Virus record (IMG/VR): IMGVR_UViG_3300025326_000008
DNA: 37,515 nucleotides
From: a virus
Reading direction: 5' to 3' (one strand)
Made by a program: the position numbers and the translations under genes. Of this stretch, positions 1,090 to 35,987 are shown piece by piece. Under the pieces are notes generated by a model. It saw nothing but the letters and a program-made list of their open reading frames with translations. It was not told the origin of the DNA and did no database searches. How positions within the stretch are numbered: position 1 is the stretch's first letter; each line of letters starts with the position of its first letter.

Positions 1090-1587
1090 CTATTTTCTTT
1101 TAAGGTGTTCTACGTTCTCGTGTTCTTTGTTAGAAGAATATAGTTTAAGATTTTTAAGTCGATTGTCTAGTTTATTTCCATTGATATGATGAACCACCTC
1201 GCCCACCAATAGATATCTTCCAGTTTCCTTTTCCATAACCAGTCGATGTTCTCTTACATAACCCATTGAATTTGCATATGGATGTTGGGACATCTTTATC
1301 AAGAAGTATCCGTGTTTTATAATTTTGCCACCCAAACCTTTGTTCCACGGAGTTCTTCCTATCATTTTAGAAGTATCTTTTATTTTCCAGTGCATTCCCA
1401 ATACGCCACTGGTCTTTCCTTTCTTAATCTCGCTCATTATTTGTTTTACTTTTGCCGAGTGTCTCTTACCGAAAAACGAGTTTTTTGGTCCGATTCTACT
1501 TTTTCCCAAACAAGATCGACTACAAAATTTAGATTTTCGATTTCTACTTTTATATGTTTTATGACAAAAGGCACAATTAAATACCAT
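1090..1587 (-). CDS. HNH homing endonuclease (HNH_3-like), paralog of 23414..23956
   Basis: Motif EHRLVMEKETGRYLLVGEVVHHINGNKLDNRLKNLKL, plus N-terminal Cys motifs (CAFCHK, FCSRSC). The track ORF begins at TTG 1611. The first ATG (1587) sits 6 nt downstream of a good -10 box, so it is preferred. Confidence 0.85.
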   Translation of the reverse strand: MVFNCAFCHKTYKSRNRKSKFCSRSCLGKSRIGPKNSFFGKRHSAKVKQIMSEIKKGKTSGVLGMHWKIKDTSKMIGRTPWNKGLGGKIIKHGYFLIKMSQHPYANSMGYVREHRLVMEKETGRYLLVGEVVHHINGNKLDNRLKNLKLYSSNKEHENVEHLKRK

Positions 1588-1593
1588 GAAGAT

Positions 1594-1622
1594 ATGATAC
1601 ACCCAAGCCAAACTAAATGCAA
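1594..1622 (-). promoter_or_regulatory. Sigma70-like promoter abutting the HNH start (leaderless candidate)
   Basis: Minus strand: TTGCAT (1622..1617), 17-nt spacer, TATCAT (1599..1594), then atcttc and ATG (1587). Confidence 0.45.
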
Positions 1623-6835: not shown

Positions 6836-8794
6836 TTAGACCGCTTTCCAAGCACGAGGTGAATTCACCTTTAACGGTCTGCCTTCAAGAATAATTCCAA
6901 GTAATACGTAGTCTGAGTCGATAGTCGAAGTAGTGAGCCTGAATTGAACGTCTCTCAACTTCTTTCTGACGGCTACATACCTAATATCTGCCGAGTCTGA
7001 AAATAGTGAAACTGTCCCTGCGCTGTCCCCTAGTTGAACACTTCCCATCGGATCATATCCAAAACCCGACAATGAATACTCCGGTGAGATCGTAGCCGAG
7101 GTAATTCCTCTAAACCCTCCTCTTTTCTCACTTCCTGAGACTTCGAAGTTAAGTACACCTCTTGGAGCACCCAATTTAATAAAAACCTTATCTACACGGG
7201 CAAATTCCTTCCAAAGTTTGTCTAACGGATAACGACCTGAAGTGTAGTCGGTAGTAAAAGCTACTCCCAAATCCCCTTGAATATTCTCGGCTATTTTAAT
7301 TAGTTTGGTTCCGGTTAAAGGAACGTAGAGCAAATGAGTATCTCCATTGGTATCCGTAGACTCAAAGAACTGTTTAGCTCCGATTGTCCACTCAACTATC
7401 CAGCAACCCCTCTCGGTGTCTAGGATAATAATTCTCGTATTCCCTGCTGTTGAGGTTGGAACTGAGATAAATACTTTAGCATCGTAGAAGTATGAGCAAA
7501 TACCAGGGATTTTGCTTCCTTCAAGGGAGTTCCAATAAGGCCGTATCTTTGCGCTTATCTCCTCCGTTCTTAATATACCGAAATAGTTTTGTCGTGGCCC
7601 TAAATTAAACCAACCTCTCCTGTTTGGGAACATTATGTCATTCGTTGTCTGGACTACTCCCAAAAGCGATTCTGTACCAAACGAACCTACGACCTTCTGT
7701 GCTGAGGGGACTGAGAAGGTAGTCGATCCTACAGTAGCACTCGTTATCTGTATCTGCCAAACCGCCCCTTTACCTTCAGGGGTTTTACAAAGCGTGGTAA
7801 GTCGCCCCTCACCTTGGCCTGATTGATAATGAACTACCGCCTGTGGGATCTCACGGCCTCCTTTTTCAAGGTTTATCCACCCACCTCCGTAAAAGTCCGA
7901 GAATACTCCGATAAACTGCCCCGTACCTGAGAAGTAAACTTTGTACATATCATCATCGTTATTGGTGGCCCAAATTCTATTACCCGACACACACATGCTC
8001 TTAAACTTAGGTGCACTGGTTGTATTATCCTCCGGAGGAATGACGTAAGGATTAAGTTCAAGTGAGCCATCATCTACAAACGAAGCCGCAGTTGTAGAAG
8101 TTAGGAGTGTTTCATCTCCTTCTTCGTCTGAGATATATAGTTGATACCTTTGGGCGTTTGAAAGAGCCGTCCAAGACCAAGTAATTTTATCTCCACTTGT
8201 CCAAGCGTCTCTCGCTTCATTAACCGCACACGAAGCCTCAGTAGAACCCGTAGTCTCACCTATTTCGTTAAGTGCGGTAACTTGTGCATAATAGATAGTA
8301 GACCCCGCAGAAAGGGTGCTTGATTTAACCCCCGATAAACCCGTAGGAGCGTTTATTGAGTTATAAGTCGAAAGAACCGTCCCGTTATATCTAGCTAGAG
8401 AGTCTGTACCGTTTGCTATATAAAGGTATCCGGTGATCTGCATGAAGTAACACTGAACATCTGCTGTGAAGGTGGCTCCTGAGATAGAACTCCACGCTCC
8501 CCCGTCAGTTGATTTATATGCCACACCACCTGCGATTGCGATTATTTCTGTAGTACCGTCGCTTTTAACGTATTCTGCCGCTCCGTCAATCGTATCTGAA
8601 AGAGAGGCTCCGTAATAAGCCGTTCCCCATCTTGGCTTCCACTGACCATCGCCGACCAAAATTAAATTCTTACTAGTGAGAGCTTCGTCCAACCCTATCC
8701 TGGCCTCGTTGAGGAGCTTGTTGGTTCCTTTGTAAGTGGTCTGCTCTATATGAATCTTTTTATTGCCTGTCTTATTTTGTGGAAGGTTAATCAT
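6836..8794 (-). CDS. Large tail/nozzle-like structural protein (about 652 aa)
   Basis: Long ORF in the tail module, beta-rich. The track ORF extends to 8863 but overlaps the HNH gene. ATG 8794 gives an 8-nt overlap (ATGATTAA). The exact start is uncertain (8794, 8809 or 8863). Confidence 0.5.
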   Translation of the reverse strand: MINLPQNKTGNKKIHIEQTTYKGTNKLLNEARIGLDEALTSKNLILVGDGQWKPRWGTAYYGASLSDTIDGAAEYVKSDGTTEIIAIAGGVAYKSTDGGAWSSISGATFTADVQCYFMQITGYLYIANGTDSLARYNGTVLSTYNSINAPTGLSGVKSSTLSAGSTIYYAQVTALNEIGETTGSTEASCAVNEARDAWTSGDKITWSWTALSNAQRYQLYISDEEGDETLLTSTTAASFVDDGSLELNPYVIPPEDNTTSAPKFKSMCVSGNRIWATNNDDDMYKVYFSGTGQFIGVFSDFYGGGWINLEKGGREIPQAVVHYQSGQGEGRLTTLCKTPEGKGAVWQIQITSATVGSTTFSVPSAQKVVGSFGTESLLGVVQTTNDIMFPNRRGWFNLGPRQNYFGILRTEEISAKIRPYWNSLEGSKIPGICSYFYDAKVFISVPTSTAGNTRIIILDTERGCWIVEWTIGAKQFFESTDTNGDTHLLYVPLTGTKLIKIAENIQGDLGVAFTTDYTSGRYPLDKLWKEFARVDKVFIKLGAPRGVLNFEVSGSEKRGGFRGITSATISPEYSLSGFGYDPMGSVQLGDSAGTVSLFSDSADIRYVAVRKKLRDVQFRLTTSTIDSDYVLLGIILEGRPLKVNSPRAWKAV

Positions 8795-9362
8795 GAAAAA
8801 TATAATCATCCTTTCTAATTCCCCTACCTGCATAGTTGTCTGTCTGCCTATGACATTCGACACAAAGCACCCTTCCGTTATCTATGGCAAACCTTAGTTC
8901 GGGGTAAAGTGCCCATGATTTAATGTGATCAGCGTGAAGTGTTCCATCTTTCTGTCCGCAGTTTTGACAAGTGTGGTCATCCCTCATGAAGACCGCAGCC
9001 CTCCAAATGCCATACTCTTTTGACCCTCTCATTCTTTTTGTCTCTGTTCCGTTTCCGAGTCCTTTATTCCATGAAATGTTCCCCTTTTTTATTTCCGTTG
9101 TGGGGCTAAAGTGTTTTCCTTTTTTATCTAATGACTCACACCTTTTTGAACACCTTTTCCTCAAATTGGCCCATGATTTGAAAACAAAAAACTCCTTGTG
9201 GCAATACTGACAAATTAAACCAACCTTTTGAGTTCTACCTTTATAGAAGCACTCCATAGAGCAATACTTTTTTCTATTCCAAACGCCAACGCCCATCCGG
9301 TATGGACACTTAATTGTCTTTTGACAAAACTGACATTTCTTTGTTCTTTGTGTGGCTTTCAT
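8787..9362 (-). CDS. HNH endonuclease with multiple Cys motifs
   Basis: HADHIKSWALYPELRFAIDNGRVLCVECHRQT (H-N-H with CxxCH), plus CQFCQK, CSMEC, CQYCHK and CSKRC. The first ATG is at 9362 (the track start at 9371 is TTG). Confidence 0.85.
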   Translation of the reverse strand: MKATQRTKKCQFCQKTIKCPYRMGVGVWNRKKYCSMECFYKGRTQKVGLICQYCHKEFFVFKSWANLRKRCSKRCESLDKKGKHFSPTTEIKKGNISWNKGLGNGTETKRMRGSKEYGIWRAAVFMRDDHTCQNCGQKDGTLHADHIKSWALYPELRFAIDNGRVLCVECHRQTDNYAGRGIRKDDYIFHD

Positions 9363-9367
9363 ACATA

Positions 9368-10093
9368 TCAACGATTTGTTGGATTACTTGAACTTGCGAA
9401 ACCCATGTCCCCTGTGCCAAATCCTTCTAAATTATCTAAACTACTCTCGATATTAAACGGAACCCCCCAGAAGCCCGAGTTATTAACTGATTTCATCTGT
9501 TTAAGTAACCCTTCGGCTACAGTAAAGAAGTTTCCGTCTATACTGTCTGTAGACTCGCTCATGTGTGCGGCTATGAAGTAACAAAGAAAATTAGGATCGC
9601 TTGGTTCTAAAACTGTACTTGTGGCTGAACTTTGGGTAGCGGCCTTGTAATAAGGATAGTTTATTGTCCCTCCTGTAGTCGGAGTAGAGAGAGGGTTAAA
9701 CTGTAAACTATGCCCTGCTTTAGCGTTACCCTTGAAATAAACCCAATTATCGGTACTATTGGCGTACTTTCCTACTTCCTCACTAGGTAATACGTGCCAA
9801 AATGTAACCCCACCCGCACTGTCGGTAGTAGTTACATATCCCCCTTCTCGTACAAAGTCTGTAGGTGTATCGTAAGTAAAGACGGCTGCGGATACTGTTT
9901 TATCCCCCGTTGAAGCACTTGTTAGGTCAGTCCACAATTCTCTCCAAGTGGTGTTATCAAAGTGTTCCCACCTCTGGACTCCCATATTAAGGAAGGATCG
10001 TGCCGTTAAGTATTCTGAGTCGGTTGTATCCCACGTATCACTATCTTTTTCAAGAAGTGAGAAGACGTTGTTGATGATTGATTGTTCTGTCAT
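9368..10093 (-). CDS. Hypothetical virion protein (241 aa), possibly adaptor or tail-tube associated
   Basis: Lies between the internal-virion-like giant protein and the tail genes. ATG at 10093 (the track start at 10099 is TTG). No family recognised. Confidence 0.4.
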   Translation of the reverse strand: MTEQSIINNVFSLLEKDSDTWDTTDSEYLTARSFLNMGVQRWEHFDNTTWRELWTDLTSASTGDKTVSAAVFTYDTPTDFVREGGYVTTTDSAGGVTFWHVLPSEEVGKYANSTDNWVYFKGNAKAGHSLQFNPLSTPTTGGTINYPYYKAATQSSATSTVLEPSDPNFLCYFIAAHMSESTDSIDGNFFTVAEGLLKQMKSVNNSGFWGVPFNIESSLDNLEGFGTGDMGFASSSNPTNR

Positions 10094-16014: not shown

Positions 16015-16043
16015 TATATATCATTTCTCACTTTTGTTGTCAA
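16015..16043 (-). promoter_or_regulatory. Promoter of cassette A (extended -10)
   Basis: Minus strand: TTGACA (16043..16038), 17-nt spacer ending aaaTGA, TATATA (16020..16015). The TGA is also the stop codon of the glycosyltransferase gene. The leader hairpin gtgcgt-attt-acgcac lies at 15980..15995. Confidence 0.55.
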
Positions 16044-17160
16044 GTATTCCCCTAAAATAGTTAGCGTACTTATCCACATTGGCCTGCATGGTGTGATTCT
16101 CTTTAATATATTTATACGCCTCCTCTGCCATCTCTTTGCCTTTATCCGGATTCTCTATTAAATATGAAAGGTGGTTAACCCAATCTTCGGTACTCGAAGC
16201 TAGTAGCCCTCTTTCAGGATGGTTGGCTAGAACGTCATTGTAAGGGTCGATCCTTTCCATAATACAAGGTGTTTTACTTGCGGAGTATTCTAAGTATTTA
16301 ATATACGACTTCGCACGACTGTAATTGCTCCATGTTAAAGGTGCGACATATATATCGCACTCACTAGCCATATTGGGCCACACTTCGTCAATAAACCTAT
16401 ATACGTTGTACCTTCCTAGGGTGTACTTATACTTGTACCCAAATAAGGCTTTGAGTTGTGGCATATAGAAAGTAGTCTTGAATCTTACTTGCGGGTACTT
16501 GTCCATGATTATTCTCATAGCTTTAGTGAATTCGGGTTTGTTTACATCGGGATAATGTGAGGCCCCTCCTATATAGCCTATGGTTATTTCATCTGTTTTA
16601 ACCTTAGGTGGGATCTTCTTAAAATCATACTTAGTCAGGTCAACGTAATTAGGAAGGACGGTAATGTCTTTAATCGGTCTTTGGGTGTGTTCTACAATCT
16701 TGTATTTTAGAAAAGGATTTGTTGTAGTGAGGGAGTCTGCGTCTAAGATAATCGCAGTTCTGTTAAATAGCTTCTCACTACCTGGTTCATAATCCCCTTT
16801 GTAATAAGGGTGTGTGGGATCGACCGCCCAGATATTATCGTCTAAGTCTAAAGCTACTTTCATTCCGTACTTCATCCCTTGCACCCTTAACTCAAGATAG
16901 AACTTAACCGAGTCTGCGTATGAGAAATACATAATGTCGTAGTATTTGGACAGATCCTCGGTATTCGTAAACTTACTCGTCTTTCCACCTACTAGCTCGT
17001 AGGATATATCTACCTCAAATTCATCCTTGGGTAAGTAGGTTAGAGGGCTAATAGTTCTAGCGTAATCAACTCCACCTACATACATAATTTCTTGACCGGT
17101 ACTTTGGTTGGTTTTTAACTTGAAATTAGTCAGTGATCCTAATACTTTTATTTTCTTCAT
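16021..17160 (-). CDS. Glycosyltransferase, GT-B fold (GT1/GT4-like), 379 aa
   Basis: C-terminal half resembles the Glycos_transf_1 region (DIYVAPL...YIKYLEYSASKTPCIM). Start chosen at MKKIKVLGS (ATG 17160), giving an ATGA overlap with the upstream methyltransferase. The track ORF extends to 17193. Confidence 0.7.
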   Translation of the reverse strand: MKKIKVLGSLTNFKLKTNQSTGQEIMYVGGVDYARTISPLTYLPKDEFEVDISYELVGGKTSKFTNTEDLSKYYDIMYFSYADSVKFYLELRVQGMKYGMKVALDLDDNIWAVDPTHPYYKGDYEPGSEKLFNRTAIILDADSLTTTNPFLKYKIVEHTQRPIKDITVLPNYVDLTKYDFKKIPPKVKTDEITIGYIGGASHYPDVNKPEFTKAMRIIMDKYPQVRFKTTFYMPQLKALFGYKYKYTLGRYNVYRFIDEVWPNMASECDIYVAPLTWSNYSRAKSYIKYLEYSASKTPCIMERIDPYNDVLANHPERGLLASSTEDWVNHLSYLIENPDKGKEMAEEAYKYIKENHTMQANVDKYANYFRGILDNKSEK

Positions 17161-17615
17161 GATACCTTGCGGAGGGTGAGGTGGCACTCCCACGGGAATC
17201 TGTCCCTGTCCATTCCTATAATTTCAAACTTACACTTGGTCATACAATGTCCTCCGAATGCTTTGTCTGTAAAGTAACCGAAAAACACATCCGCCTGTTC
17301 TGGGATGTATTTAACATGGGTCGGATCTAAGAATGCGTGGGGATGGGGTAAAGTGGGAACTCGAATATCCAACACTCCACCTATCTTCAGAAACGAGCCT
17401 AATTGCTCCATCAAAGCTACTGTATCTTGGAAATGCTCTACAAAATGATGGGCGAATACTGCGTCGTATAAATAAGGAGGCTTGAAGTCAAATACCGAAC
17501 ACAACCACTTTTGTCCGTGATCTATATTGTCTAATCCCTCAGTATTAGGAATCCACCTAGTTATATCAGAACACCCTACGTTTAATGCTCGGTTTACTTC
17601 AATTTTCTTTTCCAT
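17157..17615 (-). CDS. Class I SAM-dependent methyltransferase-like protein (152 aa)
   Basis: ALNVGCS (motif I-like) and YDAVFAHHFVEHFQDTVALMEQLGSFLKIGGVLDI, a Methyltransf_11-like pattern. Confidence 0.6.
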   Translation of the reverse strand: MEKKIEVNRALNVGCSDITRWIPNTEGLDNIDHGQKWLCSVFDFKPPYLYDAVFAHHFVEHFQDTVALMEQLGSFLKIGGVLDIRVPTLPHPHAFLDPTHVKYIPEQADVFFGYFTDKAFGGHCMTKCKFEIIGMDRDRFPWECHLTLRKVS

Positions 17616-30482: not shown

Positions 30483-30677
30483 TCATCTCCTTTCATGGGT
30501 TATTATGGTTAGTTCTTGATACATGAATGATTCCAGTTGAACGTAATCCACTATATGCTTTCCATCTACTCTAATAACAAATGAATATAGTCCATCTTTC
30601 TTGTCCAGCATATCTCTAGCCATGTCGAGATAGACTTGTGTGTTGTGAGAACTTATTTCTTGTTTTACAGCCTCCAT
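30483..30677 (-). CDS. Hypothetical protein (64 aa)
   Basis: ORF track. 13-nt overlap with the upstream gene. Confidence 0.5.
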   Translation of the reverse strand: MEAVKQEISSHNTQVYLDMARDMLDKKDGLYSFVIRVDGKHIVDYVQLESFMYQELTIITHERR

Positions 30678-31309
30678 GTTTTGTCTAAATACTCCTTTTT
30701 GAACTTCTCCATGTCTGTAAAAAAGTTTGGTCTCTTGTCTCCGCCTTTTGAGTCGTGAACCATGACTATCGGCACTGTGAGTAGCTTGTAGCCCTTCTTA
30801 ATGAATTCTAACGATATGATGTGGTCGTAGAAGTCCCAGGTGGCGTAATCTTTGTCCGGTATCCCCACATCCTCTAATATCTTCTTTGTGGTTATCAAAC
30901 ACACTCCGTCTAAACTAACTACCTCACTAAATGGCCCGAATACACTTAATTCATTCCCCTTCTCTCCTTTGTGGAAGATCTGTCCTGATAATATGTGTCC
31001 TAAATATCTCTCTTGAGAAAACCACCAAGGTTGGTCTTTGTGTAGAACTGTCGTGCCGGCAGTCCCTATCATTCCCACTTTACCTTTTAAGTATTTAGCG
31101 GGGTCGGGAAATCCTATGAATTGAGTATCCTGGTGAGTAAAACATATATATTCTCCTTTAGCTTTAGCCACTCCTTTACGCCAAGCATCGAAGAATGAAG
31201 TGGCACCATATATCGGAATTAACTCAAACGGCATTCCTAGAGCCTCTAGTGAAGCCTTTAGTCTCTCAACTTGTTTTTTATCGGTTGTAGGGGTAATGAA
31301 TGAAATCAT
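30665..31309 (-). CDS. GT-A type glycosyltransferase-like protein (214 aa)
   Basis: ISFITPT..., then GEYICFTHQDTQF (DxD-equivalent region as in 'glycosyltransferase like family 2' proteins). ATGA overlap with the terL stop. Confidence 0.55.
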   Translation of the reverse strand: MISFITPTTDKKQVERLKASLEALGMPFELIPIYGATSFFDAWRKGVAKAKGEYICFTHQDTQFIGFPDPAKYLKGKVGMIGTAGTTVLHKDQPWWFSQERYLGHILSGQIFHKGEKGNELSVFGPFSEVVSLDGVCLITTKKILEDVGIPDKDYATWDFYDHIISLEFIKKGYKLLTVPIVMVHDSKGGDKRPNFFTDMEKFKKEYLDKTWRL

Positions 31310-32565
31310 ATTGTGGCTAATGGTATAGACTCGTCTTGTAAGTGAACTTCGTCATCGTAAGGCTTTAGACTCTCCATGGCATATCTGCCAGCATCAAGTA
31401 AATTATTATACATATCTATTGGGGTGTTAATTGTTTCTCCGGTCTTCTTGTCGATCCTCCAAGCATAATTCTCTTGCTCTTCTTTAAGGTGGATGCTTCT
31501 TTTAGTATAATAAACTGTCTGTGCTTGAACATATTGTATGCCCTGATTAACTGATCCTGGCCCCTTTTGAGACGGCACAAGACTTACACCATAACTAATT
31601 AGTTCATCATTACTCTTAGGTTCTGCACTGTCTGGAACTAACAAAACGTCTTCTCTCATTTTAATAACGTCTGATATGTCTTTGTTACTCATACCTTTAC
31701 GGTAACAAACTTCGTCCCAAATAAAGGAATTGTTCCAACTGTAAACATCCACTATTCCTGTGGGGTCATTTGAATAACCATAATCAAGCCCCCTGCGTCT
31801 AAGCCTGGCTTCGGGGGGTACATCATCTATTTCGATGAAATTATAAATCCTTCCAAGTACCGTTTCAGGAACGTAGCCTTTAATCATGTTGTAGTAATGT
31901 TCCGGCTTGGTCTCTTTGTACGCTTCGTATTGGGCAATAGATGCAGGAGCCATGTTAACTTCATTAGAATGATAGTCCGAGACAATGGCCATTGAGTCTG
32001 TTGCTGTTGACTTTAACTTGGGTATAAAAAACCCTTTCTGTTCACTCTTTTCCAAATCAAACCACCTTTTAATAATCCAGTGGTTCTTAGCCGGAGGATT
32101 AAGTAAAAGAATTATTGTAATATTCCCCTTAACAGTACGAAGTGAATCATCCAACTGCATGAAGTCTTCTTCCGGTATCTCATCAGCTTCTTCAATTATC
32201 ACACAGTTGTAACTAGCTAACGACTTTAACTTGCTCTTTTGGTCACCTGAAGACTTCCTAAACCCTACGGCGTTAATACTATTCTCTCCATAAGTCAAAG
32301 ACATTGTGCTTTCGTTTATCTTGACTTTATTGGTTAGTCCCGCCTCGTCTATTCTGTCAGTTATCTCTCTATAAATTGAATTACGGATGTCGCCTAGAAT
32401 ATAACGCATTGTGGCTGCTCTGAAGTATTCCGGGGCTATTAGTTTGGCTACTGCATATTGTGAAGCGACTGTTGAACGACCGGCACCACGACCCCCTAAA
32501 AGGATAAAATACCTAGGATGTTCTATGAATAAGGGTCTAAAAACTTCATTTACTTTCTGAATCAT
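31306..32565 (-). CDS. terL: Terminase large subunit (419 aa)
   Basis: P-loop LLGGRGAGRST, Walker B-like CVIIEEADE and a C-terminal nuclease-like half. Lies adjacent to the small subunit gene. Confidence 0.9.
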   Translation of the reverse strand: MIQKVNEVFRPLFIEHPRYFILLGGRGAGRSTVASQYAVAKLIAPEYFRAATMRYILGDIRNSIYREITDRIDEAGLTNKVKINESTMSLTYGENSINAVGFRKSSGDQKSKLKSLASYNCVIIEEADEIPEEDFMQLDDSLRTVKGNITIILLLNPPAKNHWIIKRWFDLEKSEQKGFFIPKLKSTATDSMAIVSDYHSNEVNMAPASIAQYEAYKETKPEHYYNMIKGYVPETVLGRIYNFIEIDDVPPEARLRRRGLDYGYSNDPTGIVDVYSWNNSFIWDEVCYRKGMSNKDISDVIKMREDVLLVPDSAEPKSNDELISYGVSLVPSQKGPGSVNQGIQYVQAQTVYYTKRSIHLKEEQENYAWRIDKKTGETINTPIDMYNNLLDAGRYAMESLKPYDDEVHLQDESIPLATI

Positions 32566-33007
32566 TTTTAAAGTCTGAAAAAACTATCGTATTCGTTTCT
32601 ATCTTTTCGCCTAGTGAAGTAATATCTGTTTCGTTCTTATCTTTCCAATCAAAGTTATTCTTTGCATTAAATATAAGTCCAGGTGTGAAAGTGTGCTTTT
32701 CGTTCATTCTACTCTCAACATCTTCTTCAACTCTGTTTCTGGCTTCTTTTATAGTGAGCAGAAATTCGTCCTTATTTGCATAGTCAACCAGTGTTCTTCT
32801 ACTCATTCCCAATCGTCTTGCAAGTCCACTCATTGTATAAGGTGCCGGAGAACTTATCATTATCTCTGTCTTCTTTGTATCATCCCAGATCTTAACGGCA
32901 CGGTCTTCACACCATTGAAAATACTCGTCTATTATTATTTGCATATCTTCTGGTGTTTTATAAAAAGGAGGTCTACCTACTGGGTTTTTTGAAATCTTAT
33001 CGGGCAT
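32546..33007 (-). CDS. terS: Terminase small subunit (153 aa)
   Basis: GRPPFYKTPEDMQIIIDEYFQWC ... SGLARRLGMSRRTLVDYANK ... GLIFNAKNNFDWKDK matches the Terminase_2-like small-subunit pattern. Confidence 0.8.
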   Translation of the reverse strand: MPDKISKNPVGRPPFYKTPEDMQIIIDEYFQWCEDRAVKIWDDTKKTEIMISSPAPYTMSGLARRLGMSRRTLVDYANKDEFLLTIKEARNRVEEDVESRMNEKHTFTPGLIFNAKNNFDWKDKNETDITSLGEKIETNTIVFSDFKNDSESK

Positions 33008-33611: not shown

Positions 33612-34478
33612 TTATCCTCTATACTTCTTTAAATCCTGTTTTGTTCCCTTCCAGAGAATTTTTGCTTTCGGGCCACCCAGTAAGTACCAATTAGTTCCAT
33701 CTGTTGTCCCCACAAGCCCCATCTTCCACAATTTGACTGCGGATTTGAATGGATAGCCTTTTTCTTTAACCTTTGAACAATACTTCCACTTCTTAATTCC
33801 TTTGTATAGAGAGCCGTTATAGGCCCTAACCGAGTCCCAAACCGAGGCCCCAACCGAGTCCCTAACCGAGGCCCTAACCGAGTCCCAAACCGAGGCCCCA
33901 ACCGAGTCCCTAACCGAGGCCCAAACCGAGTCCCAAACCGAGTCCCAAACCGAGTCCCCAACCGAGTCCCTAACCGAGGCCCCAACCGAGTCCCTAACCG
34001 AGGCCCAAACCGAGGCCCCAACCGAGTCCCCAACCGAGTCCCTAACCGAGGCCCAAACCGAGTCCCCAACCGAGTCCCACTTCGCCAAGAGTTTAAGATG
34101 TCTTGTACTTATCTTTGGAGGTTTAATCCTAAAAGGATGGATGGGTTTAATTGCTTCTTTTAGATTGATTCTTGAATAAACTAATTTCTGCCACTTTTTA
34201 CAAGCGTCATAACAAGGTTTCTCATAACTTTTATCTAACCAAGAGGGTGTAACCGCTTCGTCAATCTTAAATACCCACTTTTGTTTTGGGTTAAGATAAT
34301 TGCCATCTTTGGGGTTGATTTCAATTCTTGCAAAAGTGTTTTCAGGAGGCATTACATCATCTTTTAACTCTTTGTCTTTTTTGACATACAAAGTCTGGAG
34401 TTCATCGTGAGAATCTACTCCTCCTTTCCAATATACTTTTTTACTTTTGGTTATTAAAATACTTACAGCCTTACACAT
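33612..34478 (-). CDS. Protein with 21 consecutive (D/A)SV(R/W/G) tetrapeptide repeats (288 aa)
   Basis: ORF track. An N-terminal domain of 134 aa, the repeat block, then a basic C-terminal domain of about 70 aa (YNGSLYKGIKKWKY...WYLLGGPKAKILWKG). GAAAGGA motif upstream of the ATG. Confidence 0.7.
   Translation of the reverse strand: MCKAVSILITKSKKVYWKGGVDSHDELQTLYVKKDKELKDDVMPPENTFARIEINPKDGNYLNPKQKWVFKIDEAVTPSWLDKSYEKPCYDACKKWQKLVYSRINLKEAIKPIHPFRIKPPKISTRHLKLLAKWDSVGDSVWASVRDSVGDSVGASVWASVRDSVGASVRDSVGDSVWDSVWDSVWASVRDSVGASVWDSVRASVRDSVGASVWDSVRAYNGSLYKGIKKWKYCSKVKEKGYPFKSAVKLWKMGLVGTTDGTNWYLLGGPKAKILWKGTKQDLKKYRG
33825..34076 (-). repeat. 21 x 12-nt perfect-register tandem repeat: coding strand G[A/C]C TCG GTT [A/T/G]GG
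   Basis: All 21 units were parsed by hand. On the plus strand each is CC[T/A/C]AACCGAG[T/G]C. Ten of 12 positions are invariant, including every synonymous third position. Confidence 0.95.
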
Positions 34479-34518
34479 TTTTATAATTTCTTATCCTTTC
34501 GTTATTAAAGACTTTAGT

Positions 34519-34610
34519 GGTGCGGGTAAACCTGTAATGTTGCCTTTCGGCCCTGCACAGGAACCCTCAGTAAATTACGTCAGGCCTGATAATTTTCTAT
34601 TACCCGCACC
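34519..34610 (-). ncRNA. Candidate structured RNA or regulatory element closed by an 11-bp helix
   Basis: ggtgcgggtaa (34519-34529) pairs perfectly with ttacccgcacc (34600-34610). Inside are a cctgt/acagg helix (34531-35 with 34557-61), a gcc-GAAA-ggc hairpin (the loop is GNRA only on the minus strand), and the 10-nt palindrome tcaggcctga (34580-34589). It lies in the intergenic gap before the repeat-protein gene. Confidence 0.35.
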
Positions 34611-34619
34611 CCAAAATCC

Positions 34620-34781
34620 TCAACTTACAATCCAAAATAATCCCCCTATTGACGTAATTATAAGTACAAATCCTAAGAAAATTGCTATTACATCATGGTC
34701 ATCTTCGGCCGTGGCTATATTATAAAGCACTATTACAGAGAAAATTGCGAATGGTATGAAGCCGAGAAATTTAGGTATCAT
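34620..34781 (-). CDS. Possible small two-TM protein (53 aa, MIPKFLGFIPFAIFSVIVLYNI...IAIFLGFVLIITSIGGLFWIVS)
   Basis: Hand translation. ATGA overlap with the upstream small ORF. Confidence 0.4.
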   Translation of the reverse strand: MIPKFLGFIPFAIFSVIVLYNIATAEDDHDVIAIFLGFVLIITSIGGLFWIVS

Positions 34782-34933: not shown

Positions 34934-35001
34934 TTTAGTCTGTCAATTATAACTACAAGTAAAACTACTACTGCTATTATTATTATAAACAGGGGTGTCA
35001 T
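34930..35001 (-). CDS. Possible 23-aa TM micropeptide (MTPLFIIIIAVVVLLVVIIDRLK)
   Basis: Hand translation. ATGA overlaps with both neighbours. Very short, so speculative. Confidence 0.2.
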   Translation of the reverse strand: MTPLFIIIIAVVVLLVVIIDRLK

Positions 35002-35309
35002 TTTCGGTTGGTTATAATCCCTTCTAAATAATCTTCCATTTGTTTGCCGGTCCACCTTGTGCAACAAAATTCTATCTTTTCATGGCAAGGTTGGCAGGCG
35101 AGTACAACCCTTCTTAAATCCGTAACTTCCCGGCGTTTCTTTGTATGTGCAAATCCTAGAAAATTATCGTGCTTACACCCTTCTAAGTTAAGCTCGCAAG
35201 TTGTAATTCCTTTTGCTTCAAAATCCTTTTTAAGTTGCTTTCGTATTCTATTCCAAATTTGTACCTTACTCAATTTAACTTGTTTAAGTGGTTTAGGTAC
35301 GGGTATCAT
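34998..35309 (-). CDS. Zinc-binding HNH/NinG-like nuclease-like protein (103 aa)
   Basis: TCELNLEGCKHDNFLGFAHTKKRRE ... VVLACQPCHEKIE follows a Cx5-6C ... H ... CxxCH arrangement. Confidence 0.45.
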   Translation of the reverse strand: MIPVPKPLKQVKLSKVQIWNRIRKQLKKDFEAKGITTCELNLEGCKHDNFLGFAHTKKRREVTDLRRVVLACQPCHEKIEFCCTRWTGKQMEDYLEGIITNRK

Positions 35310-35337: not shown

Positions 35338-35805
35338 TTATATATTTTTACCACAAGTCCACCTGACAAAACTCATTCCGTCATTAACAAACATCCGGTA
35401 AGCGTAATCAGTTGAACATTTAACGTCTGTGGCACACCAATCGCTTACGTGAGGGTGATATACATTATTTATTTGCCAGTATCCTCTATCTACCCCCACC
35501 CCACCCCAAATTCTATTATCATTTTTTGCATTGGGATTAAGTGTTTTATTCTCACACTCAAGTAGTTTAAGTGCTTCTTCGGCATCGGCTCCGAATTTAT
35601 ATCTTATATAGCCTTTAATATCTGTGGGAACCGGTATTACCCCTACAGTTATTACTTCAGAGGTAATATGAGTCGTTGTATCGAGTTGAGGGGCTTCTTG
35701 GGCCAGTACACGAGTCTTGGGTGCGTGTTGGATGTCATATCCCACTACCGCAGTTAAAATCATGACGGTTATGAATATGTTTCTAATAATTGTACTTGTT
35801 GTCAT
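35338..35805 (-). CDS. Lytic transglycosylase (SLT/lysozyme-like) with an N-terminal signal anchor
   Basis: LLECENKTLNPNAKNDN ... GVDRGYWQINNVYH resembles the SLT catalytic-Glu and GLMQI-like motifs. N-terminal TM IIRNIFITVMILTAVVGY. ATG 35805 is preferred over the GTG at 35832. Confidence 0.7.
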   Translation of the reverse strand: MTTSTIIRNIFITVMILTAVVGYDIQHAPKTRVLAQEAPQLDTTTHITSEVITVGVIPVPTDIKGYIRYKFGADAEEALKLLECENKTLNPNAKNDNRIWGGVGVDRGYWQINNVYHPHVSDWCATDVKCSTDYAYRMFVNDGMSFVRWTCGKNI

Positions 35806-35987
35806 ATAAGGCCGGATAATCAAACCTCTCACAGTTACAATTATCCAGGCCTAGGTGTAGTAGTGGGCGAGTCCTCCACACTAGCTTTGGCCTTATATAT
35901 CAACGAGTTATAATTACAAAGAGCAAAATTATAATAGCTATCCAAATAAATAAAAAGTTAAATAAATCCCAATTATCATTCAACCAG

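What the first reader, a model, noticed from the sequence alone, without database searches (positions are those of the whole stretch)
33612..34478. 21 perfect 12-nt repeats encoding (D/A)SV(R/W/G) with only two variable nucleotides per unit
What the sequence shows:
- Bases 33825-34076 contain 21 uninterrupted units of G[A/C]C TCG GTT [A/T/G]GG on the coding strand.
- Every unit was checked. Ten of 12 positions never vary, including all synonymous third positions (Ser is always TCG, Val always GTT).
- Variation is confined to one base that switches D/A and one that switches R/W/G. The order looks combinatorial rather than periodic.
- The block is clearly more GC-rich than the rest of the genome.
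- It is flanked by ordinary-looking N- and C-terminal domains.

Interpretation: invariant wobble positions imply very recent expansion or gene conversion, or else selection acting on the DNA or RNA itself. In a genome with no recognisable replication genes, a 21 x 12-bp array inside a gene is also a candidate iteron-type origin or protein-binding array, as with the lambda origin inside gene O. It could equally be a slippage-prone length-variable region. I do not recognise the tetrapeptide repeat as a named family.
Basis: partly seen in the sequence, partly recalled or inferred. Interest (0 to 1): 0.7.

Follow-up and report, generated by a model that had tools for sequence, protein, structure and literature searches.

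The report
Hypervariable tetrapeptide repeat in phage protein
The 21 perfect 12-base repeats encode a four-residue protein repeat (Asp/Ala-Ser-Val-Trp/Arg/Gly) in a large, uncharacterised phage protein family, kept uniform by repeat slippage and recombination except at two variable bases, and they are not a replication origin.

Summary

The array is a protein module. More than 4,000 uncharacterised phage proteins, and a second family of DUF6745 proteins on bacterial mobile elements, carry the same x1-Ser-Val-x4 repeat.

Codon evidence:
- Within each of about 100 arrays, the Ser and Val codons are uniform.
- Between lineages, all six Ser and all four Val codons are used. This indicates concerted evolution plus selection on the peptide.
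- Variation always sits at the same two bases.
- No array mixes the two Arg codons AGG and CGG, so unit types are inherited and reshuffled, not produced by hypermutation.

Proteins with flanks identical to the window's carry 5-10 units instead of 21. This is either real length polymorphism or collapse of the repeat in short-read assemblies.

The alternative readings (iteron origin, diversity-generating retroelement, RNA structure) were each tested and not supported.

Function is unknown. AlphaFold predicts a helical excursion from a compact body whose fold has no PDB match. I infer a fast-evolving interaction surface. The repeat class appears to be undescribed in the literature I could search.

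The parts
33612..34478 (-). Gene for a 288-aa tetrapeptide-repeat protein (the stop codon is 33612-33614)
   Evidence: ORF listing. More than 4,366 homologues at E <= 1e-3, none with a Pfam domain. 224 related stretches in viral contigs.
34077..34478 (-). N-terminal globular domain, residues 1-134, 'MCKAxS...W.xGxDSH' type. Cys2 is nearly invariant; Ser6, His24 and Asp35 are invariant.
   Evidence: Alignment A1. pLDDT above 90. No hit in Pfam, PHROGs, NCBIfam or PADLOC. Replaced by DUF7666 or other N-domains in related proteins.
34077..34145 (-). Conserved linker helix 'PIHPFxIxPPxIxxxHLxLLxxW' (residues 112-134) leading into the array
   Evidence: Conserved in every N-domain variant of the phage family. 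Predicted helix H125-150 runs continuously into the first units.
33825..34076 (-). Array of 21 x 12 nt, G[A/C]CTCGGTT[A/T/G]GG, encoding (D/A)-S-V-(G/W/R), residues 135-218
   Evidence: The same module with the same two variable bases occurs in 62 distinct arrays (61 from viral loci plus the window's own) and in DUF6745-gene arrays.
33615..33824 (-). C-terminal domain, residues 219-288, 'AYxGS...W.Y...GYPF...LWKxGLV...DG..W.L.GG'
   Evidence: Alignment A1. pLDDT 82-95. It is the most widely shared part of the phage family: tblastn hit in 70 of the 80 viral loci, against 50 for the N-domain.

Best explanation
The array encodes a protein module, a tetrapeptide repeat x1-Ser-Val-x4. It lies between a conserved linker helix and the C-terminal domain of a widespread, uncharacterised phage accessory protein.

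Shown:
1. The peptide is what is conserved, not the DNA. Ser-Val is kept through every synonymous codon, including switches between TCN and AGY serine codons.
2. Each array is homogenised internally. This is concerted evolution by replication slippage or unequal recombination between 12-nt units.
3. Two bases escape homogenisation in essentially every lineage: the second base of codon 1 and the first base of codon 4.
4. Unit types are inherited and reshuffled rather than made anew. No array mixes AGG with CGG. The window and P0001 differ by one 12-unit deletion whose breakpoint lies inside a unit and creates a chimeric unit.

Inferred:
- Because Trp must be TGG and bases 11-12 are homogenised, codon 4 is locked to NGG. 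Its only possible residues are Trp, Arg and Gly.
- Diversity at x1 and x4 is kept by selection on the protein, since neutral variation at those bases would be homogenised like the synonymous sites.
- In the predicted alpha-helix, Ser and Val form a constant face and x4/x1 form an adjacent variable face.
- The array is a helical excursion of variable length and variable surface, projecting from a compact body made by the N- and C-domains.
- I take it to be a fast-evolving interaction surface of proteins carried by mobile elements. What it binds is unknown.
For: - Exact anatomy.
- Family size and lack of annotation.
- Codon homogeneity within arrays and divergence between them: 75 loci. In 62 distinct arrays, position 10 is polymorphic in 62 and position 2 in 57. 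Mean minor-allele fractions are 0.53 and 0.35 there, against 0.005-0.033 at nine other positions and 0.076 at position 1.
- The same signature in DUF6745 genes, for example 63 and 69 units.
- 0 of 102 arrays mix AGG and CGG.
- Over 1,858 units, Ser is 98% and Val 96%; x1 is D 44% and A 40%; x4 is R 33%, W 32% and G 28%. The order is near random.
- Flanks identical to the window's with 5-10 units instead of 21. P0002 equals P0003 plus a 7-unit block.
- L010 and L014 have flanks 100% identical over 500 nt but different arrays.
- AlphaFold predicts helices through the array ends. pTM is 0.76-0.78 for both the 21-unit and the 2-unit proteins.
- Context is mobile elements: a temperate-phage early region, and DUF932 and a C-5 methylase next to DUF6745 genes.
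- 1,131 cluster representatives carry such arrays, and 73 of 112 scanned have DUF6745.
Against: - Function is not demonstrated. There is no fold match in the PDB and no annotated relative.
- The helical model has pLDDT below 50 in the middle of the array. I could not inspect coordinates, so the packing of the N- and C-domains rests only on pTM.
- W/R/G proportions are over-dispersed between arrays (chi-square sum 265 against 144 expected). Selection therefore does not hold an even balance, and 7 of 72 arrays lack one residue type.
- Copy-number and unit-order differences could partly be short-read assembly artefacts. Many contigs end at the array.
- A dual role of the DNA cannot be strictly excluded.
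Confidence: 0.6

Rival explanations
1. Iteron-type replication origin, or another protein-binding DNA array, embedded in a gene, like the lambda origin inside gene O. The repeats would be bound by an initiator, and the encoded peptide would be only a tolerated linker.
For: - The architecture resembles lambda gene O: N-domain, central repeats, C-domain.
- No replication genes were recognised in the window.
- In relative L146 the gene lies between the integrase and early genes and a NinG-like gene, which is where lambdoid replication genes sit.
- The array is a GC-rich island in an AT-rich gene.
Against: - The peptide is conserved through at least 35 DNA spellings. N-domain type A occurs with at least 12 spellings. 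The same spelling occurs with A, A' and DUF6745-family flanks.
- Arrays range from 5 to about 90 contiguous 12-bp units and occur in chromosomal genes.
- The two variable bases would sit inside every binding site.
- Cumulative GC skew is monotonic.
- The gene matches no initiator family.
Confidence: 0.04
2. Targeted hypermutation of the two variable bases. This could be adenine-directed mutagenesis by a diversity-generating retroelement (DGR), since the unit GACTCGGTTAGG has adenines only at positions 2 and 10, or some other site-specific mutator.
For: - In the window's unit, the adenines coincide exactly with the two variable positions.
- Heterogeneity at these two positions is about 10-100 times that of nine other positions (about 5-7 times that of position 1).
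Against: - No reverse transcriptase was found among the ORFs scanned, and no template copy of the array exists in the window.
- In arrays that use AGC or AGT for Ser, the adenine at position 4 never varies.
- 20 arrays have C, T and G but no A at position 10, and 0 of 102 arrays mix AGG with CGG. Recurrent mutation would mix them.
Confidence: 0.03
3. The array is a passive, flexible or disordered spacer whose sequence matters little. It would be a neutral coding minisatellite that expands and contracts by slippage, and the W/R/G and D/A variation would be neutral.
For: - Copy number varies widely, from 2 to about 90 units.
- The order of unit types is near random.
- Composition drifts between arrays.
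- pLDDT is low in the middle of the array.
Against: - Ser is 98% and Val 96% conserved across about 100 lineages and two unrelated protein families, through Ser codon-class switches.
- If positions 2 and 10 were neutral they should be homogenised like the synonymous sites, yet they are polymorphic in 57-62 of 62 arrays.
- Related dialects keep the scheme x1-polar-aliphatic-x4.
Confidence: 0.15
4. The array is selected as an RNA or DNA secondary structure, for example a regulatory mRNA fold or a slipped-strand DNA structure, rather than for its peptide.
For: The array is GC-rich and perfectly periodic.
Against: - The RNA minimum free energy is -94.4 kcal/mol against a shuffle mean of -102.2 (z = +1.73). 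193 of 200 shuffles fold at least as well.
- The nucleotide spelling differs freely between lineages.
- There is no Rfam match.
Confidence: 0.02

Closest known systems
TAL effector repeats (Xanthomonas and Ralstonia): 34-aa repeats with repeat-variable diresidues
   Same: Both are near-identical tandem DNA repeats in which variation is confined to fixed codons, here x1 and x4. Both show a combinatorial order of unit types, changes in repeat number by recombination, and a helical repeat scaffold carrying a variable face.
   Different: The unit here is 4 aa rather than 34. There is no sequence or fold similarity. No ligand or code is known, and nothing here shows that one unit reads one ligand element. 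This comparison is from my own knowledge, not a tool result.
In-frame coding minisatellites (VNTRs) under concerted evolution, such as Plasmodium CSP NANP/NVDP tetrapeptide arrays and staphylococcal Ser-Asp repeat proteins
   Same: The unit length is a multiple of three. Copy number is variable, units are homogenised within an allele, and a few unit types are interspersed. The only library hits to the array are low-complexity matches to SD-repeat adhesins and to the PfP230 repeat.
   Different: Those are surface antigens or stalks of cellular pathogens and are mostly disordered. This array is in phage and mobile-element proteins with no signal peptide or cell-wall anchor evident in the sequence (not formally scanned). 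It has a strictly conserved Ser-Val core and is predicted to be helical.
Pfam DUF6745 (PF20530) proteins
   Same: They carry the same (D/A)SV(W/R/G) array with the same DNA signature between an N-terminal region and the C-terminal domain. 73 of 112 top array-bearing proteins are DUF6745.
   Different: The window protein's flanks are not detectably homologous to those of DUF6745 proteins (hhalign probability below 1% once arrays are removed; no Pfam hit). DUF6745 itself has no known function and no literature.
Origin iterons of phage lambda inside gene O
   Same: Both are direct repeats in the middle of a gene, between two protein domains, in the early region of a temperate-type phage.
   Different: Lambda has four iterons of about 19 bp plus an AT-rich region, and they are bound by the O protein's own N-domain. 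Here there are 21 contiguous 12-bp units, the peptide rather than the DNA is conserved, and the DNA does not co-vary with the flanking domains.
Pentapeptide-repeat proteins (Pfam PF00805)
   Same: Both are very short tandem peptide repeats with a conserved central aliphatic residue and variable outer positions.
   Different: The period is 4 rather than 5. The repeat is predicted helical, not a beta-helix. There is no Pfam match.

Membership tests
In-frame coding tandem repeat under concerted evolution | Unit length is a multiple of 3 and in frame within a conserved ORF | tested here: met
   The 12-nt units start at offset 402 (frame 0) of the 288-aa ORF. The ORF is conserved in more than 4,000 proteins.
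In-frame coding tandem repeat under concerted evolution | Units are more alike within an array than between orthologous arrays, including at synonymous sites | tested here: met
   Ser and Val codons are uniform within nearly every one of 75 arrays. Between lineages, all 6 Ser and 4 Val codons are used.
In-frame coding tandem repeat under concerted evolution | Copy-number polymorphism between otherwise identical alleles | tested here: inconclusive
   Flanks identical to the window's occur with 21, 10, 9, 7, 6 and 5 units. The nested pattern is also what repeat collapse in short-read assemblies would produce. No read data were available.
Iteron-type replication origin | A few (about 3-8) spaced direct repeats of about 17-22 bp next to an AT-rich unwinding element | tested here: not met
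   There are 21 contiguous 12-bp units with no spacers. Homologous arrays have 5 to about 90 units.
Iteron-type replication origin | The repeat DNA sequence is the conserved or co-evolving entity, matched to a cognate initiator's DNA-binding domain | tested here: not met
   There are at least 35 DNA spellings for one peptide, with no co-variation with N-domain type or family.
Iteron-type replication origin | A cognate initiator (Rep, O or DnaA-like) is encoded at or near the repeats | tested here: not met
   Neither the gene nor its neighbours match any initiator family in Pfam, PHROGs or NCBIfam. A novel initiator cannot be excluded.
Iteron-type replication origin | Compositional-skew turning point at the origin | tested here: not met
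   Cumulative GC skew falls monotonically across the window. This is weak evidence, because all genes are on one strand.
Diversity-generating retroelement (DGR) variable region | A reverse transcriptase and a template repeat nearby | tested here: not met
   No reverse transcriptase was found among the ORFs scanned. There is no second copy of the array.
Diversity-generating retroelement (DGR) variable region | Variation is restricted to positions that are adenine in the template | tested here: not met
   The adenine at position 4 is invariant in arrays using AGC or AGT for Ser. 20 arrays lack A at position 10 altogether.
Pfam DUF6745 | Match to the PF20530 C-terminal domain | tested here: not met
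   The window protein has no Pfam hit. hhalign of the flanks gives probability below 1%. Only the repeat module is shared.
TALE-like modular recognition repeats | Hypervariable residues at fixed positions of otherwise identical repeats | tested here: met
   x1 and x4 vary while Ser and Val are fixed (98% and 96%) over 1,858 units.
TALE-like modular recognition repeats | One repeat reads one unit of a linear ligand through a defined code | not testable with these tools
   No ligand is known. The near-random order and rapid turnover neither support nor exclude a code.
Pentapeptide-repeat family (PF00805) | Five-residue period matching the Pfam model | tested here: not met
   The period is 4 residues. 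There is no Pfam match in 54 members.

The most novel reading that the evidence does not exclude
The x1-Ser-Val-x4 array may be a previously unrecognised kind of modular, evolvable recognition surface. It would be the shortest known structured repeat with hypervariable positions. Recombination between 12-nt units would quickly generate new lengths and new combinations of Trp/Arg/Gly and Asp/Ala along one face of a helix. Phages and other mobile elements (this family and DUF6745) would use it to bind, or to escape from, a periodic or polymorphic host target. In function it would parallel TALE repeat-variable diresidues or variable lymphocyte receptors, but it would diversify by ordinary repeat recombination rather than by a dedicated enzyme.
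Probability: 0.12. Interest if true: 0.85.

Novelty: new variant of a known kind. Interest (0 to 1): 0.55.

Why it matters
This defines a large family of mobile-element proteins that nobody has studied. There are more than 4,000 phage proteins at 90% clustering. There are also 1,131 representatives at 50% clustering that carry such arrays, most of them DUF6745. The evolutionary signature is unusually clean: strong homogenisation of 12-nt units, with diversity persisting at exactly two bases in about 100 independent lineages and in two unrelated protein contexts. That pattern usually marks a surface under conflict-driven or specificity-driven selection, so the family is a good candidate for phage-host interaction studies.

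Two practical points follow:
- These arrays break short-read assemblies, and copy number and unit order in metagenomic contigs should not be trusted.
- A perfect tandem repeat inside a phage gene should not be read as an origin without checking whether the peptide or the DNA is what is conserved.

Tried and rejected
- **Family libraries.** Pfam, PHROGs, NCBIfam and PADLOC scans of the whole protein, both flanking domains and 54 family members gave nothing beyond low-complexity noise.
- **PDB by sequence.** A profile search gave only PfP230's repeat and a marginal 72-aa 'TLP-4' chain (E = 0.067), which I did not follow up.
- **PDB and viral structures by fold.** Foldseek with the 21-unit model and with the compact 2-unit model found nothing at E <= 0.001. 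Repeated weak hits to proteasome beta subunits (E 1.3-9), together with the conserved N-terminal Cys2, hint at an N-terminal-nucleophile (Ntn) hydrolase. This is only a lead, not a result.
- **Literature.** Searches for the peptide strings, for DUF6745 and DUF7666, and for tetrapeptide repeats in phages found no relevant paper.
- **DGR idea.** Rejected.
- **Homology between the phage-family and DUF6745-family flanks.** Rejected; the only aligned stretch, 'WRLHGG' against 'GRLH', is not significant.
- **Synteny by tblastn with the window's neighbours.** Mostly uninformative, because the family sits in very different phage backbones.
- **Selection for an even W/R/G balance.** Rejected; compositions are over-dispersed.
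- **First genome scans.** One failed and one returned nothing, for lack of a usable pattern.
- **GenBank phages.** One weak hit to the N-domain only.
- **Upstream structured element.** No Rfam match. The one other occurrence of its stem arms has an unrelated interior.
Full report
**1. The observation**

The sequence is as described. On the minus strand, window 33825-34076 consists of 21 uninterrupted 12-nt units, G[A/C]C TCG GTT [A/T/G]GG. They lie in frame inside the ORF 33612-34478, which encodes 288 aa.
- Ten of the 12 positions never vary.
- Position 2 is A in 13 units and C in 8. Position 10 is G, T and A in 7 units each.
- Tandem Repeats Finder reports this as the only tandem array in the window.
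- A two-unit pattern matches 20 times, against none in 100 shuffles.
- The array has GC 0.64, against 0.36 for the rest of the gene and 0.405 for the window.

**2. Context**

The window is a tailed-phage genome with every sizeable ORF on the minus strand.
- Just downstream of the repeat gene are the small terminase (32546-33007), the large terminase (31306-32565), a glycosyltransferase and the portal.
- Upstream are an SLT-type lysozyme (35338-35832) and small ORFs.
- No reverse transcriptase and no recognisable replication protein turned up among the ORFs scanned.
- There are no tRNAs and no Rfam matches.
- In a relative whose protein is 82% identical, the gene lies in the early or accessory region of a temperate phage. 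The order is integrase, small genes, SLT lysozyme, this gene, a NinG-like gene, then terminase.

**3. The gene family**

The protein has more than 4,366 homologues at E <= 1e-3 in the large protein collection. All are unnamed or 'hypothetical', none has a Pfam domain, and lengths run from about 200 to 336 aa. Deposited phage genomes give only one weak hit. Pfam, PHROGs, NCBIfam and PADLOC return nothing real.

The alignment shows four parts:
- an N-domain, 'MC[KQ]AFS...W.xGxDSH';
- a linker helix, 'PIHPFxIxPPxITxxHIxLLKxW';
- a variable number of x1-S-V-x4 units;
- a C-domain, 'AYxGS...GYPF...LWKxGLVPSFDGxxWRLHGG'.

The family is modular. The same linker, array and C-domain are fused to at least three N-domain types. 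These are the window's type, a diverged 'MCKFFS...DSHTSIADYFG' type, and DUF7666.

**4. The key test: synonymous sites**

I extracted the arrays from the 80 related viral loci.
- Within each array, the Ser and Val codons are almost perfectly uniform.
- Between lineages, every synonymous option is used: TCG, TCA, TCC, TCT, AGC and AGT for Ser, and GTT, GTC, GTG and GTA for Val.

In 62 distinct arrays of at least 9 units:
- position 10 is polymorphic in all 62, and position 2 in 57;
- mean minor-allele fractions there are 0.53 and 0.35;
- at nine of the other ten positions they are 0.005-0.033, and at position 1 the value is 0.076.

So the peptide is what is conserved. The uniformity within an array is concerted evolution, not selection for a particular DNA word. 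Homologues do vary freely at synonymous sites, but only between arrays.

**5. A second carrier family and a wider repeat class**

A scan of bacterial and archaeal genomes gave two kinds of hit.
- Full-length family members lie on MAG contigs assigned to many phyla. These are probably phage contigs binned with hosts.
- A different protein family carries the same (D/A)SV(W/R/G) repeat, with up to about 90 units.

The C-terminal domain of this second family is Pfam DUF6745, with E as low as 1.8e-62. There is no literature on it. Once the arrays are removed, its flanks are not detectably related to those of the phage family; hhalign probability is below 1%. Its arrays show the same DNA signature, for example 63 units of G[CA]CAGTGTT[CGT]GG and 69 units of G[CA]CAGCGTG[GAT]GG. 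Its genomic neighbours, DUF932 and a C-5 methylase, point to mobile elements.

An exhaustive search with the array peptide alone found 1,131 cluster representatives at E <= 1e-3 and 256 at E <= 1e-10. Of 112 scanned, 73 have DUF6745. The same search revealed related 'dialects'. These include (D/A)QV(W/R/G), (D/A)KV(W/R/G/E), (D/A)SL(R/G/W), xNL(W/R/Q/E) and ESV(R/W/G). All fit the scheme x1-polar-aliphatic-x4.

**6. How the variation arises**

Over 102 distinct arrays, 1,858 units in all:

| Position | Residues |
|---|---|
| x2 | Ser 98% |
| x3 | Val 96% |
| x1 | Asp 44%, Ala 40% |
| x4 | Arg 33%, Trp 32%, Gly 28% |

- The order of types is close to random; all |z| values are 3 or less.
- Codon 4 is nearly always NGG. 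Gly is GGG in 461 of 517 cases.
- No array contains both AGG and CGG. 72 arrays use only AGG and 20 use only CGG.

Recurrent point mutation at position 10 would mix the two synonymous Arg codons. Their mutual exclusion means that unit types are inherited within an array and reshuffled.

Comparisons of close relatives show the process directly.
- P0001 equals the window's units 1-7, then a chimeric DSVW unit, then the last unit. That is one 12-unit deletion with its breakpoint between positions 2 and 10 of a unit.
- P0002 equals P0003 plus a 7-unit block.
- L010 and L014 have flanks 100% identical over 500 nt, yet their arrays differ in several units.

I infer the following. Trp requires TGG and bases 11-12 are homogenised, so the only residues reachable at x4 are Trp, Arg and Gly. 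If variation at positions 2 and 10 were neutral it would be homogenised like the synonymous sites. Its persistence in about 100 lineages therefore implies selection for diversity at x1 and x4. Selection does not enforce an even balance, however. Compositions are over-dispersed between arrays (chi-square sum 265 against 144 expected). The window's 7/7/7 split is a coincidence (P = 0.038).

**7. Length polymorphism**

Five proteins have N- and C-flanks identical to the window's but carry 10, 9, 7, 6 or 5 units. Four of the five begin with the window's first units (DG DW AR DG); P0019 begins DG DG DW. All five end in a W-type unit followed by DSVR, as the window does. This is what internal deletions or expansions would produce. 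It is also what collapse of a repeat in short-read assemblies would produce, and many contigs end at the array. I therefore rate real copy-number polymorphism as likely but unproven.

**8. Structure**

AlphaFold with a 54-sequence alignment gave mean pLDDT 83 and pTM 0.76. Both flanking domains score above 90. The array is modelled as four helices continuous with the flanking helices, but pLDDT is below 50 in its middle. A natural 2-unit member gave pLDDT 90.4 and pTM 0.78, with the array reduced to a short connection between the linker helix and the C-domain.

I infer that the N- and C-domains form one compact body and that the array is a helical excursion of variable length. This rests on the pTM values, because I could not inspect the coordinates. 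In an alpha-helix, Ser and Val would lie on one face and x4/x1 on the adjacent face. That gives a constant packing stripe and a variable exposed stripe.

Foldseek found no PDB structure at E <= 0.001 for either model; the best E-values were 2.6 and 0.46. In the viral structure library, only two uncharacterised phage fragments matched. Weak hits to proteasome beta subunits, together with the near-invariant Cys2, are only a lead towards an N-terminal-nucleophile (Ntn) hydrolase.

**9. Rivals tested**

- **Iteron or origin.** The analogy to the lambda origin inside gene O is reasonable on position and architecture, and the premise of no recognisable replication genes holds. Against it:
  - The DNA spelling of the unit does not co-vary with any flanking domain. 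There are at least 35 spellings, N-domain type A occurs with at least 12 of them, and the same spelling occurs with three flank types.
  - Arrays have 5 to about 90 contiguous units and occur in chromosomal genes.
  - GC skew has no turning point.
- **DGR.** The coincidence of adenines with the variable positions in the window's unit does not generalise. Adenines in AGC or AGT Ser codons never vary, 20 arrays lack A at position 10, and the window has no reverse transcriptase among the ORFs scanned and no template copy of the array.
- **RNA structure.** The array RNA folds no better than shuffled sequence, z = +1.73.
- **Passive spacer.** This does not explain the strict conservation of Ser-Val across two families, or the maintained diversity at two positions.

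**10. Verdict**

It is one instance of a widespread and apparently undescribed tetrapeptide-repeat module in proteins of phages and other mobile elements. The repeat evolves by concerted evolution and has two hypervariable residues per unit.

The mechanism that produces the DNA pattern is well supported. The biological function is unknown. My preferred reading, a rapidly evolving helical interaction surface, is an inference. I class this as a new variant of a known kind, namely coding tandem repeats under concerted evolution with hypervariable positions. Interest is moderate to high, because the family is large and unstudied and its signature is unusually clean.

Noticed in passing
window 34479-34625 (minus strand), immediately upstream of the repeat gene's start codon: This GC-rich intergenic element of about 120-147 nt folds very strongly as RNA. 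Its minimum free energy is -51.1 kcal/mol against -30.5 +/- 3.6 for shuffles (z = -5.8), and 0 of 200 shuffles fold as well. A long closing stem encloses two small hairpins. There is no Rfam match. It is not conserved in relatives at 82-84% DNA identity. The only other viral contig with the same stem arms has an unrelated interior. It could be a structured 5' leader, a small RNA or a terminator, and it remains unexplained.
   Followed up: partly
window 33629-34069 (minus strand, alternative frame): The array keeps a second frame open, giving a 146-aa ORF 'GTRFGPRLGTRLG...'. One database variant with flanks otherwise near-identical to the window's (one N-domain substitution) (P0019, 5 units) is frameshifted after the array, so its C-terminus is read in this alternative frame. 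This is most likely a sequencing or assembly error, but it shows how easily such arrays generate spurious proteins.
   Followed up: partly
L021, L025, L031, L037, L041, L050, L069 and other viral loci: Many metagenomic contigs stop at or inside the tetrapeptide array. The repeat therefore breaks short-read assemblies, and copy number and unit order in such contigs are unreliable.
   Followed up: no
window 30665-31309 and 16021-17193 (minus strand): There are two glycosyltransferase genes in or beside the packaging and structural module (Pfam Glyco_tranf_2_5; PHROG 7162). They may glycosylate the virion. I found no evidence linking them to the Ser-rich repeat.
   Followed up: no
window 1090-1611, 8787-9371 and possibly 34998-35309 (minus strand): A 37.5-kb phage genome carries two HNH endonuclease genes (Pfam HNH_3 and HNH). 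A third small Cys/His-rich ORF lies upstream of the repeat gene and matched no family.
   Followed up: no
Proteins P0129, P0135, P0140, P0145, P0244, P0262, P0265, P0272, P0154 and P0269: DUF6745-type proteins carry other tetrapeptide dialects: (D/A)KV, (D/A)QV, (D/A)SL, xNL, ESV and xAV, each followed by W/R/G or other residues. A few array proteins have quite different flanks (P0245, P0271, P0273). I could not obtain their DNA, so I do not know whether the same two codon positions vary.
   Followed up: partly
L106 973-1704: One DUF6745 array of 61 units breaks the NGG rule. Codon 4 is NNT (GGT, CGT, GAT, AAT, AGT, TAT), giving G/R/D/N/S/Y and no Trp. The third base is still homogenised. This fits the idea that the fixed bases of codon 4 decide which residues are available.
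   Followed up: no
window 1-37515: All ORFs of 90 aa or more that look like genes are on the minus strand, and cumulative GC skew falls monotonically. No replication genes were recognised among the large ORFs scanned. Several large ORFs (1318, 675, 487, 407, 333 and 309 aa) match nothing in the libraries each was scanned against (Pfam and/or PHROGs).
   Followed up: partly
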